A stretch of 64,000 bases of DNA, taken from assembly GCF_009914755.1 (NCBI RefSeq), contig NC_060948.1; one strand, 5' to 3'. Below, piece after piece: positions 16,772 to 62,439 of this stretch (position 1 is the stretch's first letter; every line of letters starts with the position of its first letter). The DNA comes from the human T2T-CHM13v2.0 reference genome, Homo sapiens. The position numbers and the translations under genes were made by a program. The notes beneath the pieces were generated by a model that saw only the letters and a program-made list of their open reading frames with translations, was not told where the DNA came from and made no database searches.

Positions 16772-17065
16772 TTTTTTTTTTTTGAGATGGAGTTTCGCTC
16801 CTGTTGCCTGGGCTGCAGTGCAGTGGCGTGATCTCGGCTCACTGCAACCTCCGCCTCCTGGGTTCAAGTGATTCTCTCACCTCAGCCGCCTGAGTAGCCG
16901 GGATTACAGGGAGGCACCACCACACCCGGCTAATTTTGTATTTTTAGTAGAGACGGGGTTTCACCATGTTGGTCAGGCTGGTCTTGAACTCCCGACCTCA
17001 GGTGATCCGCCGGCCTCGGCCTCCCAAAGTGCTGGGATGACAGGTGCGAGCCGCTGCGCCCGGCC
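16772..17065 (-). mobile_element. AluS
   Basis: Poly-T followed by a full reverse Alu, with flanks GTTTCCAAA/GTTTCAAA resembling a TSD. Confidence 0.9.
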
Positions 17066-17111
17066 AGTTTCAAAGGTTTTATGCCCCTGGGTGTTAGACA
17101 GAAATTGTGTT

Positions 17112-17410
17112 GGCCGGGCGCGGTGGCTCACGCCTGTAATCCCAGCACTTTGGGAGGCTGAGGCGGGCGGATCACGAGGTCAGGAGATCGAGACCATCCC
17201 GGCTAAAACGGTGAAACCCCGTCTCTACTAAAAATACAAAAAAATTAGCCGGGCGTAGTGGCGGGCGCCTGTAGTCCCAGCTACTTGGGAGGCTGAGGCA
17301 GGAGAATGGCGTGAACCCGGGAGGCGGAGCTTGCAGTGAGCCGAGATCCCGCCACTGCACTCCAGCCTGGGCGACAGAGCGAGACTCCGTCTCAAAAAAA
17401 AAAAAAAAAA
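17112..17410 (+). mobile_element. AluYa5 (young, human-specific subfamily)
   Basis: Diagnostic motifs ATCCCGGCTAAAACGG, GGCGTAGTGG, CTACTTGGG and GATCCCGCC. Pure poly-A tail and TSD AGAAATTGTGTT. Confidence 0.88.
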
Positions 17411-17426
17411 AGAAATTGTGTTTTTA

Positions 17427-57528: not shown

Positions 57529-58908
57529 GTGAGGAGGGGAAGGATATCCGCACGTCTCTCCCGGGGCAGGGGCATCGTCAGCCTCAGACTCCGTTTGCTG
57601 TGCCCTGGGTGTGGGTGCTGCCATGATTCCTGTAGCAGGTGAAGCCGTCGAACGGGGGCTGCCTGCTCTCCCGCAGTGTGGGGGGCCCTGGCTGACCCGG
57701 TGGGGTGGCTCCTGGTGAGATCTGCTTCCCTTGACGGGTTTAGAAATGTGTGCAGCGTCAGCCGGGCGCGGTGGCTCACGCCTGTCATCCCAGCACTTTG
57801 GGAGGCCGAGGCGGGTGGATCACGAGGTCAAGAGATCGAGACTATCCTGGCCAACATGGTGAAACCTGGTCTCTACTAAAAATACAACAATTAGGCTGGG
57901 TGTGGTGGCTCACGCTTGTCATCCCAGGACTTTGGGAGGCCGAGGCGGGCGGATCACGAGGTCAAGAGATTGAGACTATCCTGGCCAACATGGTGAAACC
58001 CCGTCTCTACTAAAAATACCAAAATTATCTGGGTGTGGCGGTGGGTGTGCCGGACGCAGTGGCTCACACCTGTCATCCCAGGACTTTGGGAGGCCGAGGC
58101 GGGCGGATCATGAGGTCAGGACATCGAGACCATCCTGGCTAACATGGTGAAACCCCGTCTCTACTAACACAAAATACAAACAATTAGCCGGGCGTGGTGG
58201 CGGGCGCCTGTAGTCCCAGCTACTCGGGAGGCTGAGGCAGGAGAATGGTGTGAACCCGGGGGGTGGAGGTTGCAGTGAGCCGAGATCGCGCCACTGCATT
58301 CCAGCCTGGGAGACAGAGCAGGATCCGTCTCAAAAAATAAAAAATAAAAATAAATAAATATATAAAAATAGAGACAGGGTCACCCTGTGCAGCCCAGGCT
58401 CGAATTCCTGGCCTCGAGTGATCCTCCCGCCGTGTCCTCCCAAAGTGCTGGGATTACAGGCATGAGCCCCTGCACCTGGCCATACTTAATTTATTTATTT
58501 ATTTGAGAGGGAGTCTCGGTCTGTCTCCCAGGCTGGAGTGCAATAGCGAAACCTCGGCTCACCGCAACCTCTGCCTCCCAGGTTCAAACGATTCTCCTAC
58601 CTCAGCCTTCTGACTAGCCGGGATGACAGGCGTGCACCACCGCACCCGGCCAATTTTTGTATTTTTAGTAGAGATGGGGTTTCACCATGTTGCCCGGGCT
58701 GGTCTCAAACTCCTGACCTCAGGTGATCCACCCACCTCGGCCTCCCAAAGTGCTGGGATGACAGGCGTCAGCCACTGCGCCCGGCCAGAATTTCATTTTT
58801 GGTTTATACTCGTGTTGGGCCGGTGTCCCGACTTCCCAGCCCTCCGCTCTCCCAGGTGCCCCCGGCTCTCCTCTCTCCCCTGCACCCCTTAACTCTGGTC
58901 CTTTGCAG

Positions 58909-59092
58909 GAGGTGCCGACACTGCGGCAGCTGTGGTCCCGGGGCCAACAGGTCATCGTCTCCTATGAAGACGAGAGCTCCTTGCGCCGGCACCACGAGCT
59001 GTGGCCAGGAGTCCCCTACTGGTGGGGAAACAGGGTGAAGACCGAGGCCCTCATCCGATACCTGGAGACCATGAAGAGCTGCGGCCGCCCAG
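58909..59092 (+). CDS. PLCXD1: PLCXD1 coding exon 5 (terminal coding exon lies beyond the window)
   Basis: ttgcag|EVPTLRQLWSRGQQVIVSYEDESSLRRHHELWPGVPYWWGNRVKTEALIRYLETMKSCGRP-G|gtacca. No stop is reached. Confidence 0.95.
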
Positions 59093-62000
59093 GTACCAGG
59101 TCGCCCCTCGTGGGGGTAGATTCCACACAGCCTCCCGTGACGCCCTGCGGCAGGCCGGGTCCACATGGACTTGCCTTCACTTTTACGTGAAAACAATTTA
59201 AAAGGAATCCATGAGCTGGGCGTGGTAATCCCTGTACCTGTAATCCCAGCACTTCGGGAGGCCGAGGCGGGTGGATCACCTGAGGTCGGGAGTTTGAGAC
59301 CAGCCTGGCCAACATAGTGAGACCCCAACTTTACTAGAAATAAAACTTAGCGGCCGGGCGCAGTGGTTCATGCCTGTCATCCTAGCACTTTGGGAGGCTG
59401 AGGCGGGCAGATCACCTGAGGTCGGGAGTTCGAGACCGGCCTGACCAATGTGATGAAACCCTGTCTCTACTTAAGAAGCACCCAGGGAGAAAGCAGTCCA
59501 TGTACATTGGCGGGGGGAAGGATCAACAAGGTGTGGTCCATCCACGCGGTGGAATATTACACAGCCATGAAAAAGAACGAGGCTCTGACAAGGATGCAGC
59601 GGGCACAAACCTTAAGACATCACGCTCAGTGAGAGAAGCCAGACACAAAAGGACACGTAGTGTGTGAATCCATTTACAGGAAATGCCCAGAACATGCCAA
59701 TCCAGAGACAGAAAGAGGATTTGTGGTTGCCGGGGGCTGCGGAGGGGAAATGAGGACTGACTGCTTCATGGAAACAGGGTCTCTCCTTTTAGGACGATGA
59801 GAATGTTCTGGAACTAGGGAGAGGTCGGAGTTGCACAACGTGAATCCACTTTATTTTTTTTAGTTAATTCTTTGATTAGAGAAGGGGTCTCACTGTGTTG
59901 GCCAGGCTGGTCTCAAACTCCTGGTGTCAGCCAGGTGCGGTGGCTCACACCTGTGATCACAGCACTTTGGGAGGCCAAGGTGGGTGGATCACCTGAGGTC
60001 AGGAGTTTGGAGACCAGCCTGGCCAACATGGCGAAACCTCTTCTCTAGCAAAAATACAAAAATTAGCGGGCACAGGCCGGGCGCGGTGGCTCACGCCTGT
60101 AATCCCAGCACTTCGGGAGGCCGAGGCGGGCGGATCATGAGGTCAGGAGATCGAGACCATCCCGGCTAACATGGAGAAACCCCGTCTCTACTAAAAATAC
60201 AAAAAATTAGCCGGGCGTGGTGGCGGGCGCCTGTAATCCCAGCTACTCCGGAGGCTGAGGTAGGAGAATGGTGTGAACTCGGGAGGCGGAGCTTGCAGTG
60301 AGCCGAGATCACGCCACTGAACTCCAGCCTGGGCGACAGAGTGGAACTCTGTCTCAAAAAAAAAAAAAAAATAGGCACCTGTAATCCCATCTACTTGGGA
60401 GGCTGAGGCAGGAGAAATGCTTGAATCCAGGAGGCGGAGGTTGCTGTGATCCATGGTCGCGCCACTGCACTCCAGCCTGGGCGACAGGAGCAAGACTCCA
60501 TCTCAAAACAAAACAAAAAAGAGAAAAATTAGCCAGGCATGGTGATGCGCGCCTATAATCCCAGCTACTCAGGAGGCTGAGGCAGGGGAATCACTTGAAC
60601 CAGGAAGGCGGAGGTTGCAGTGGGCCGAGATTGAGCCAGTGTACTCCAGCCTGGGCAACAGAGCGAGACTCTGTCTCAAAACAAAACAAGACAAAATCAA
60701 ACTTCTGGGGTCAAGCGATCTGCTTGAACCACCATTCCCAGCCGAGTTGTGCAATTTAAAATCGTGAATTTCGGTGCAGTGGCTCACGCCTGTAATCCCA
60801 CCACTTTGGGAGGCCGAGGCAGGTGGATTAATTGAGATCAGGAGTTTGCGACCAGTCTGGTGAAACCCCATCTCTAGTAAAAATACAAAAAGATTTAGCT
60901 GGGCGTGGTTGTGTGCACCTGTAATCCCAGCTCCTCGGGAGGCTGAGGCAGGAGAATTGCTTGAACCCGGGGGCGGAGGCTGCCGTGAGCCGAAATCGCG
61001 CCACAGCACTCCAGCCTGGGCAACAGAGCGAGACTCCATCTTGGGAAAAAAAAAAAAAGGTAACTTTTTTGTACGTGAATTTCACCACAATTTTTGTAAA
61101 AAAGCCACCGACGGGGTGTGAGGTGCAGACAGCGTCGGCAGCCACGGCCCCGTGTCCTCCGGAGGCAGGAGCCTGAGGGAGGGAGGGAGGAAGGTCCTCC
61201 CCGCGGGGACGGTGGCAGGTGGGGCCGTCTCGGTCCTGCAGCCTGCGGCTGGGTTCTCTCAAGGTGATCTTCACAGCCGCGAGGGCTGCTTCCCACAGGG
61301 GCAGCATGAAACCCAGTCACGGGCCGGGCAAAGGAGCAGGTTTTTTCAACTTGGTCTCTTGCCCTCACACAGGAACGAGGTTAGAGACTTCAGAAATGTC
61401 TTTTTTTTTTTTTTGAGATGGAGTCTCACTCTTGTTGCCCCGGTCGGAGTGCAGTGGCGCGATCTCGGCTCACTGCAACCTCCGTCTCCCGGGTTCAAGC
61501 CATTCTCCTGCCTCAGCCTCCTGAGTAGCTGGGACTACAGGCGCCCGCCACCACACCCGGCTAATTTTTTTTTGTATTTTTAGTAGAGACAGGGTTTCAC
61601 CATGTTGGTCGGGCTGGTCTCGAACTCCTGACCTCATGATCTGCCCGTCTCAGTCTCCCAAAGTGCTGGGATGACAGGCGTGAGCCACGGTGCCAGGCGG
61701 AAAATTTTTTTGTTTGTGTGTTTGTTTTTTGAGACAGAGTTTTGCTCTTGTTGCCCAGGCTAGAGTGCAATGGCGCAATCTTGGCTCACTGCAGCCTTCG
61801 CCTCCTGGGTTCGAGCAGTTCTCCCGCCTCAGCCTCCCACCACGCCCAGCTAATTTTTATTTTTAGTAGAGATGGGGTTTCTCCATGTTGATCAGGCTGG
61901 TCTCGAACTCCCGACCTCAGGTGATCTGCCCGCCTTGGCCTCCCAAAGTGGTGGGATTACAGGCTTGAGCCACTGTGCCCGGCCTTTTTTTGTTTGTTTT

Positions 62001-62439
62001 GTTTTGTTTTTGAGACAGAGTCTTGCTCTGTCACCCAGGCTGGAGTGCAATGGCGTGATCTCGGCTCACTGCAACCTCCACCTCCTGGATTCAAGTGATT
62101 CTCCTGCCTCAGCCTCCCGAGTAGCTGGGATTACGGGCACGTACCACCATGCTGAGCTAATTTTTGGATGTGTTTTTACTAGAGAAAGGGTTTCAGCGTG
62201 TTGGTCAGGCTGGTCTTGAACTCCTGACCTCATGATCCACCGGCCTCAACCTCTCAACGTGCTGGGATGACAGGCATGAGCCACCGTGCCCAGCCTAGAA
62301 ATACGTGTTAAAAACCACTGAGAGAACTTGGCCATAAACGTCTGTTGCCTTTGCCGTCTCTGGCCGTGGAATCAGTCCAGCTGGTCAACACAGGGGCACT
62401 GGAACCTACCTCTGGGGGAGCTTCTTCAAATATGGCTTG

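What the first reader, a model, noticed from the sequence alone, without database searches (positions are those of the whole stretch)
17030..62275. Same non-consensus variant (TGTAATCCC>TGTCATCCC) shared by ~24 Alu arms of different subfamilies
Seen: GATGACAGG/TGTCATC in place of consensus GATTACAGG/TGTAATC at about 17036, 17451, 18571, 22725, 25335, 26319, 27967, 28390, 28690, 28903, 29624, 44207, 45241, 47588, 49797, 57290, 57783, 57917, 58071, 58622, 58757, 59375, 61670 and 62266. It occurs in both S- and Y-type Alus and in both arms, but not in the young AluYa5. A non-CpG transversion should not recur independently this often. Inference: it spread by regional non-allelic gene conversion, possibly GC-biased (A>C), in highly recombining PAR1, or reflects a local motif-specific mutational or selective process. 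The change destroys a TAATCC K50-homeodomain site (OTX/PITX/CRX) and creates TGACAG (MEIS/TGIF/PKNOX).
Basis: partly seen in the sequence, partly recalled or inferred. Interest (0 to 1): 0.75.

Follow-up and report, generated by a model that had tools for sequence, protein, structure and literature searches.

The report
PAR1-specific mutation hotspot in Alu repeats

Summary
Real, large, and not found in my ten literature searches. All 24 listed sites exist: 24 of 87 Alu arms in the window carry TGT[A>C]ATC. The exact 14-mer is 15 C : 21 A here against 8,398 : 647,622 genome-wide. The change reaches 56% of intact left arms in distal PAR1 and 22% in proximal PAR1, about threefold excess at an autosomal tip, and about 1% elsewhere. 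Carriers are AluJ, S and Y. It needs an intact TGT_ATC word (51 of 105 versus 1 of 29). It favours one orientation (odds ratio 4.3) and differs between the X and Y copies at 2 of 34 sites, against 0 of 7,767 comparable sites. Flanks show no co-conversion, and other routes to TGACAG or away from TAATCC are not enriched. So Alu-to-Alu conversion, pure drive, selection on binding sites and a single subfamily all fit poorly. It behaves like a recurrent, word-specific, strand-biased germline mutation at or above the CpG rate. The link to male meiotic break repair is inferred from geography only. Published autosomal singleton rates for this 7-mer are ordinary, so the process must be largely PAR1-specific.

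The parts
17036..17042 (-). left-arm carrier (AluS), changed base 17039
17135..17141 (+). non-carrier control: young AluYa5-type left arm, A at 17138
17450..17456 (+). left-arm carrier (Sc/Y-like), 17453
18571..18577 (-). left-arm carrier (AluY), 18574
22724..22730 (+). right-arm carrier, CGTCATC context, 22727
25335..25341 (-). left-arm carrier, 25338
26318..26324 (+). left-arm carrier (AluY), 26321
27967..27973 (-). left-arm carrier (AluY), 27970
28390..28396 (-). left-arm carrier, 28393
28690..28696 (-). left-arm carrier (AluS), 28693
28903..28909 (+). left-arm carrier (AluS), 28906
29624..29630 (-). left-arm carrier (AluS), 29627
44207..44213 (+). left-arm carrier (AluS), 44210
45240..45246 (+). 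left-arm carrier, 45243
47588..47594 (-). left-arm carrier (AluS), 47591
49797..49803 (-). right-arm carrier, 49800
57290..57296 (-). left-arm carrier (AluS), 57293
57783..58077 (+). three adjacent left-arm carriers (57786, 57920, 58074) that share private variants; probably one or two events
58622..58628 (-). right-arm carrier, 58625
58757..58763 (-). left-arm carrier at 58760 that is still polymorphic: C on the Y copy, A on the X copy, no other difference in the arm
59375..59381 (+). left-arm carrier, 59378
61670..61676 (-). left-arm carrier (AluS), 61673
62266..62272 (-). left-arm carrier (AluS), 62269

Best explanation
Half of the Alu left arms in distal PAR1 carry A>C in the word TGT[A]ATC, most likely because this base mutates recurrently and independently in each copy, probably through error-prone, one-directional repair synthesis at male meiotic breaks in the X-Y pairing region. 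Shown: the enrichment, the 6-7 base context requirement, one product base, the orientation bias, present-day polymorphism, no co-conversion, and a gradient falling away from the telomere. Inferred: a rate of about 4-8e-7 per generation (from recalled rate constants), neutral or weakly GC-biased fixation over the last 10-30 million years, and the link to meiotic breaks. Speculative: break-induced-replication-like synthesis running towards the telomere, with a translesion polymerase (pol eta type, A>C at TA) making the error.
For: Position 27 is C in 53 of 145 PAR1 left arms; the mean over 84 other A/T positions is 1.0%. Intact context 51 of 105, broken context 1 of 29, p=2e-6. Carriers have 1 departure in 317 sites at 24-30 against 4.2% in the flanks, while A-arms have 35 in 495; pooled that is 4.4%, the background, so broken words are protected rather than overwritten. 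Orientation in the distal 320 kb: left 27 of 37 (minus) vs 19 of 45 (plus), right 8 of 26 vs 1 of 19, Mantel-Haenszel OR 4.3, p=0.001; the other 12 substitution classes show no comparable difference by inspection. X vs Y: 2 of 34 intact A-bearing left sites differ A/C, against 0 of 7,767 other consensus A/T sites and 26 of 2,267 CpG sites. Neutral mutation predicts 1.5-2.9 such differences and drive alone 0.02-0.04. Gradient: 46 of 82 distal, 5 of 23 proximal (p=0.004), 0 of 5 beyond the boundary, parallel to the male crossover map (PMC4102438 passages). Meiotic break repair gives strand-asymmetric translesion and BIR-like mutation (PMC7615360 passages), and an X/PAR1-restricted C>G signature is already known (PMC6731651 passages).
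Against: In autosomal singletons TGT[A>C]ATC is ordinary: 1.62e-3 against 1.64e-3 for all A>C; the unmasked-minus-masked part gives 1.48e-3 against 1.20e-3 at a control Alu A (PMC6138700 supplement 3). A process scaling linearly with recombination should show there, so PAR1-specificity must be assumed. In that table TCT-, TTT- and TGC-AATC have higher A>C than TGT-AATC, unlike the PAR1 pattern. The polymorphism test rests on two events, and on 0 of 35 right-arm sites. The orientation bias is not visible in sampled proximal PAR1 hits (8 plus, 8 minus loci, no denominator) or at the chr1p tip (16 plus, 10 minus). Other TA sites in PAR1 Alus are not special (TA>C 1.4%, CA>C 1.4%), so a generic pol eta signature is not enough. 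The non-Alu test was inconclusive. No break map was overlaid.
Confidence: 0.55

Rival explanations
1. Moderately raised local mutation (about 25-50 fold) combined with a context-specific repair bias that resolves A/C heteroduplex at this word towards C in nearly all allelic conversions (B about 5-15 in distal PAR1).
For: The lower bound on polymorphism (0.7%) leaves room. It would explain a fixed autosomal C:T of 25:10 against 1.27 in singletons (p=0.045) and the subtelomeric excess (17 of 77 vs 5 of 89) with ordinary singleton rates.
Against: Needs two special properties of one word. Allelic conversion has no reason to favour one orientation. Measured PAR1 gBGC is only about twice the autosomal value (PMC9575207 passages).
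Confidence: 0.18
2. Recurrent mutation unrelated to recombination: a fixed replication-fork direction, or a protein bound to the word, in germ-line subtelomeric chromatin blocks repair or promotes misinsertion.
For: Orientation bias and sharp 6-7 base specificity; left arms exceed right arms with the same word (51 of 105 vs 12 of 68); a tandem 44-47 kb repeat on acrocentric arms also carries it.
Against: Autosomal tips are only about threefold enriched; no sampled hit on X between 2.4 and 70 Mb against 10 on X PAR1.
Confidence: 0.12
3. Non-allelic Alu-to-Alu conversion with very short patches biased to C, spreading autocatalytically.
For: Alu-Alu conversion exists (98 cases in 68,097 loci; PMC8230782 abstract). 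Autocatalysis would give a non-linear regional contrast. Three adjacent arms share private variants. The reverse change TGT[C>A]ATC is 1.9-fold higher outside the mask, which could be conversion or mis-mapping.
Against: No shared flanking variants; neighbours are not more alike than chance (35 of 60 vs 30.4). Only 2 differences in 3,291 core sites, bounding ordinary tracts to about 0.1 expected events at position 27. The dependence is on 6-7 bases, not on extended homology. Transitions that start commoner did not spread.
Confidence: 0.08
4. Pure allelic drive (PRDM9-type hotspot erosion, or a C allele that suppresses breaks).
For: Scales with recombination and leaves singleton rates ordinary.
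Against: Predicts 0.02-0.04 X/Y differences, 2 seen (p=2e-4 to 9e-4); orientation bias; A>T 1 and A>G 8 against A>C 53.
Confidence: 0.03
5. Selection to lose K50 homeodomain (TAATCC) sites or gain TALE (TGACAG) sites.
For: Both motif changes do occur; LEUTX-type factors bind this Alu motif (PMC9978639 passages).
Against: Other TAATCC-destroying changes are 3-9 per about 145 arms. The far easier CpG route to TGACAG (position 261) is 34%, within the 21-41% of other CpGs. The route to GATGAC at position 62 is 1 of 123.
Confidence: 0.02
6. One retrotransposed subfamily, a segmental duplication, or an assembly artefact.
For: Three adjacent arms are related; one tandem repeat inflates the genome count by about 224.
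Against: Carriers are 11 of 24 AluY, 30 of 62 AluS and 3 of 14 AluJ; 43 left-arm sites are C on both the X and the Y copy.
Confidence: 0.02

Closest known systems
PAR1/X-restricted C>G signature of late-repaired male meiotic breaks (PMC6731651, PMC9575207; passages read)
   Same: Transversion enriched in PAR1, tied to male meiosis, weak or absent on autosomes
   Different: That is a modest shift over broad contexts; this is A>C in one 6-7 base word, reaching half of sites. PMC9575207 excluded repeats from its alignment, and neither text has a word starting with 'Alu'.
Meiotic-break mutagenesis by translesion synthesis and BIR (PMC7615360; passages read)
   Same: All six substitution types raised near breaks; strand-asymmetric, long-range component
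   Different: The long-range classes there are C>G and A>G and are asymmetric about each break; here A>C is asymmetric relative to the chromosome end.
Signature 9 / non-canonical AID, pol eta A>C at WA (PMC4686820; passages read)
   Same: A>C at a TA dinucleotide
   Different: Somatic and dinucleotide-level; other TA sites in PAR1 Alus are not raised above CA sites.
Alu-Alu non-allelic gene conversion (PMC8230782; abstract read)
   Same: One diagnostic-like base across subfamilies; lies in the conserved Alu core (recalled as a recombination-prone 26-bp core, no call)
   Different: Reported events are rare tract replacements; here there are no co-converted bases.
GC-biased gene conversion in PAR1 (PMC9575207, PMC4102438; passages read)
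   Same: A/T to G/C direction, strongest where male recombination is highest
   Different: B is only about twice the autosomal value and is not confined to one position or one product base.

Membership tests
Alu subfamily diagnostic variant | carriers share other diagnostic positions | tested here: not met
   J, S and Y carriers; of 119 positions only a few reach nominal p<0.05, the strongest being conservation of 25 and 26
Non-allelic gene conversion | co-converted or shared flanking variants | tested here: not met
Non-allelic gene conversion | neighbouring copies more alike in state | tested here: not met
   35 of 60 pairs under 2 kb vs 30.4 expected
GC-biased gene conversion | acts on all A/T-to-G/C changes alike | tested here: not met
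   36.6% at position 27 vs 1.0% mean
PRDM9-type motif erosion / drive | several disrupting alleles favoured; low standing polymorphism | tested here: not met
Context-specific germline mutational signature | short sequence context required, one product base | tested here: met
Context-specific germline mutational signature | raised standing variation | tested here: met
   2 of 34 vs 0 of 7,767, p=2e-5; two events only
Context-specific germline mutational signature | visible in rare variants or de novo mutations | tested here: inconclusive
   not raised in autosomal singletons; no PAR1 data available
Context-specific germline mutational signature | same change in non-repeat copies of the word | tested here: inconclusive
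   GTCATC:GTAATC 43:8 in 73.9 kb, rank 6 of 64 contexts
Meiotic-break-associated mutagenesis | tracks male recombination geography | tested here: met
   distal > proximal PAR1 > autosomal tips > interior; small n beyond the boundary
Meiotic-break-associated mutagenesis | centred on mapped breaks; paternal origin | not testable with these tools
   no break map or pedigree data
Pol eta / signature 9 | general A>C excess at TA and AA | tested here: not met
   TA 14 of 990, CA 57 of 4,104, AA 11 of 1,318, GA 40 of 5,369

The most novel reading that the evidence does not exclude
Human PAR1 hosts an undescribed, sequence-specific and direction-specific germline mutator that turns GATTACA into GATGACA faster than methyl-CpG decays, driven by telomere-directed repair synthesis between X and Y, and it has rewritten half of the embryonic homeodomain sites in the region's Alus.
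Probability: 0.35. Interest if true: 0.88.

Novelty: new variant of a known kind. Interest (0 to 1): 0.74.

Why it matters
A non-CpG transversion running at or above the CpG rate in one word and one chromosomal region would be among the strongest point-mutation hotspots in the human germ line. It sits where standard analyses do not look, because they mask repeats or leave out the sex chromosomes. The many near-identical Alus act as a built-in reporter array, so existing long-read cohorts and ape assemblies can test how male X-Y breaks are repaired, whether repair synthesis has a direction, and when the process began. It also matters in practice: mutation-rate models, Alu dating and variant interpretation in PAR1 would be wrong at these sites.

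Tried and rejected
Hairpin templating: an intact 5-bp stem (C in 42 of 82 vs 9 of 22) and the opposite GG (45 of 93 vs 6 of 11) make no difference. A 'fivefold genome-wide' excess over control position 33 (C:G:T 5:24:17 vs 25:33:10) was downgraded, because the control departs from singleton rates in the other direction and the published ratio is only 1.2. Yq12 satellite Alu fragments as the source of the genome-wide reverse-strand excess: 0 matches. One Alu in a 44-47 kb tandem unit gives about 224 of the 994; the rest is unexplained. Mirror-image orientation bias at autosomal ends: too few hits, no support. Non-Alu word counts: inconclusive. Two unpaired sample hits were checked for A/C polymorphism: the first is identical at the site on X and Y (gap-length difference only), and the second showed no difference at position 27 in the paired arm. 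Rows dropped: the tandem-array locus L014 from all arm counts; 16 tandem-unit copies, right arms, one duplicate and one non-Alu hit from the subtelomere tally. Ten literature searches (listings only) showed no title or abstract on this change; subscription journals are mostly not covered.
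Full report
Observation. Every listed site is present. Aligning Alu arms to the window's own young AluY, 21 of 45 left arms and 3 of 42 right arms have C at arm position 27 (right-arm equivalent 162). The exact 14-mer occurs 15 times with C and 21 times with A in the window, against 8,398 and 647,622 in the genome; the G form occurs 9,843 times. That is 42% against 1.3%, odds ratio 55. 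About 22 of the 24 look independent, because three adjacent arms share private variants.

Geography. I read the window plus 170 kb of other Y-copy PAR1 (L007-L026, of which the tandem-array locus L014 was dropped), out of about 2.4 Mb. Among left arms with an intact word and A or C, C is 46 of 82 in the distal 320 kb and 5 of 23 at 0.6-2.4 Mb. It is 0 of 5 left arms just beyond the boundary on X, 1 of 4 at 19p and 0 of 4 at 16p; these are tiny samples. Three random subsamples of genome-wide C matches put 24 of 139 in the two PAR1 copies and none on X between 2.4 and 70 Mb (16 tandem-unit copies set aside). Outside PAR1, 17 of 77 left-arm C hits lie within 5 Mb of a chromosome end against 5 of 89 control variants (p=0.002; most chromosome lengths recalled). 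At the chr1p tip C:G is 26:14 against 36:62 at 7-14 Mb (hand tally; p=0.004). Male crossover rate is highest at the telomeric end of PAR1 (PMC4102438 passages).

Specificity. Position 27 is C in 53 of 145 PAR1 left arms, G in 8 and T in 1. The mean A>C/T>G over 84 other positions is 1.0%. Carriers are 11 of 24 AluY, 30 of 62 AluS and 3 of 14 AluJ in the distal part (subfamily calls from my own diagnostic positions, recalled). The word must be intact: C in 51 of 105 left arms with TGT_ATC and 1 of 29 without; 0 of 49 right arms of the TGTAG type against 15 of 89 others. Carriers have 1 departure in 317 sites at positions 24-30 while their flanks have 4.2%. A-arms have 7.1%, and pooled it is 4.4%. 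So broken words escape; they are not overwritten. The few post-change departures suggest that the changes are younger than the average Alu (inference).

Direction. In the distal 320 kb, minus-strand Alus carry C more often than plus-strand ones (left 27 of 37 vs 19 of 45; right 8 of 26 vs 1 of 19; OR 4.3, p=0.001). The direction is the same between genes at 60-103 kb and 225-320 kb and, weakly, in PLCXD1, but not at 149-168 kb; other substitution classes show no comparable bias. I could not show it in proximal PAR1 or at chr1p.

Still happening. The assembly's X and Y copies of PAR1 are two independent haplotypes (recalled). Over 200 paired arms they differ at 56 of 24,477 bases. Two differences are A/C at position 27 (window 58760 and L022:378), among 34 intact A-bearing left sites; 43 are C on both, and 0 of 35 intact right sites differ. 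No other consensus A/T site shows such a change (0 of 7,767); CpG transitions are 26 of 2,267 (197 arms). With recalled rates (CpG 1.1e-7, A>C 1.5e-9 per generation) and 1-2 million generations assumed, neutral recurrent mutation at 4-8e-7 predicts 1.5-2.9 differences and drive alone 0.02-0.04. This rests on two events (95% interval 0.7-20%).

Against conversion and selection. Carriers share no excess flanking variants (p=0.53) and neighbours are not alike. The two polymorphic arms differ from their X partners at that base only. Core positions 12-47 differ at 2 of 3,291 sites, below the 5.3 expected from mutation alone, although paralogues differ by 10.8%. The CpG route to TGACAG and other ways of destroying TAATCC are at background. 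gBGC in PAR1 is about twice autosomal (PMC9575207 passages).

Against my reading. The published autosomal 7-mer table gives TGT[A>C]ATC an ordinary singleton rate (1.62e-3 vs 1.64e-3), with only a 1.3-fold excess over TGTAAT[A/G/T] in masked sequence and higher values for other _AATC words (PMC6138700 supplement 3, rows read). A rate some hundreds of times ordinary in distal PAR1 cannot be a linear extension of that. Either the process is X-Y-specific, as the known C>G signature is (PMC6731651 passages), or a fixation bias adds to it. Non-Alu words in PAR1 lean the same way (43:8) but rank only 6 of 64. A generic TA effect is absent.

Mechanism. I commit to recurrent mutation during error-prone, one-directional repair synthesis at male meiotic breaks in PAR1 (0.55). 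Translesion and BIR-like, strand-asymmetric mutagenesis at human meiotic breaks is documented (PMC7615360 passages), and A>C at WA is the pol eta product (PMC4686820 passages). Synthesis that always runs towards the telomere would give both the gradient and the fixed orientation; this step is speculation. Loss of the TAATCC site that LEUTX-type factors bind in Alus (PMC9978639 passages) is a consequence, not the cause.

Novelty. It works like a regional germline mutational signature but fails membership tests for subfamily inheritance, non-allelic conversion, gBGC, hotspot drive and signature 9. Ten searches listed nothing on it; I saw listings only, most subscription papers are not held, and I read supplements of one paper only. 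Verdict: a real and surprising feature, new variant of a known kind, interest 0.74.

Noticed in passing
G000 C13:5.77-9.34 Mb, C14:2.10-2.81 Mb, C15:2.5-4.65 Mb: An Alu in a 44-47 kb tandem unit (rDNA by spacing and place, recalled) has C at position 27 in all 97 array copies listed, of 227 matches. About 770 of the genome-wide reverse-strand excess is still unexplained, so more spacer Alus may carry it.
   Followed up: partly
L043, L044, L046 (Yq12): Satellite units hold a 5'-truncated Alu on the minus strand with A at 27; the C form has 0 matches genome-wide.
   Followed up: yes
L014 (Y 146001-156000): Tandem array of at least 24 Alu right-arm-derived units with G at position 162.
   Followed up: no
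genome sample: About 15 of 33 G-at-27 left arms look AluY or Sc type, suggesting an inherited sub-lineage that inflates the A>G count.
   Followed up: no
L022:2759-2775 vs L036: Four X/Y differences within 17 bases of one right arm: a possible multi-nucleotide or short conversion event.
   Followed up: no
L015 vs L031/L032: Alus at Y 159-165 kb show 17 X/Y differences, far more than other loci; possibly a deep haplotype.
   Followed up: no
window 30016-35972, about 46088-46751, about 62789-64000: Large VNTRs (55-base unit at 30-36 kb) with many unit differences between the X and Y copies.
   Followed up: no
L015:6750-8400: A tandem repeat with relatives at many loci, several near chromosome ends (19p, 20q, 12q, 10p, 9q).
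   Followed up: no
PMC6138700 supplement 3: The reverse change TGT[C>A]ATC is 3.9e-3 outside the mask against 2.1e-3 inside: conversion back to consensus or mis-mapping in Alus.
   Followed up: no
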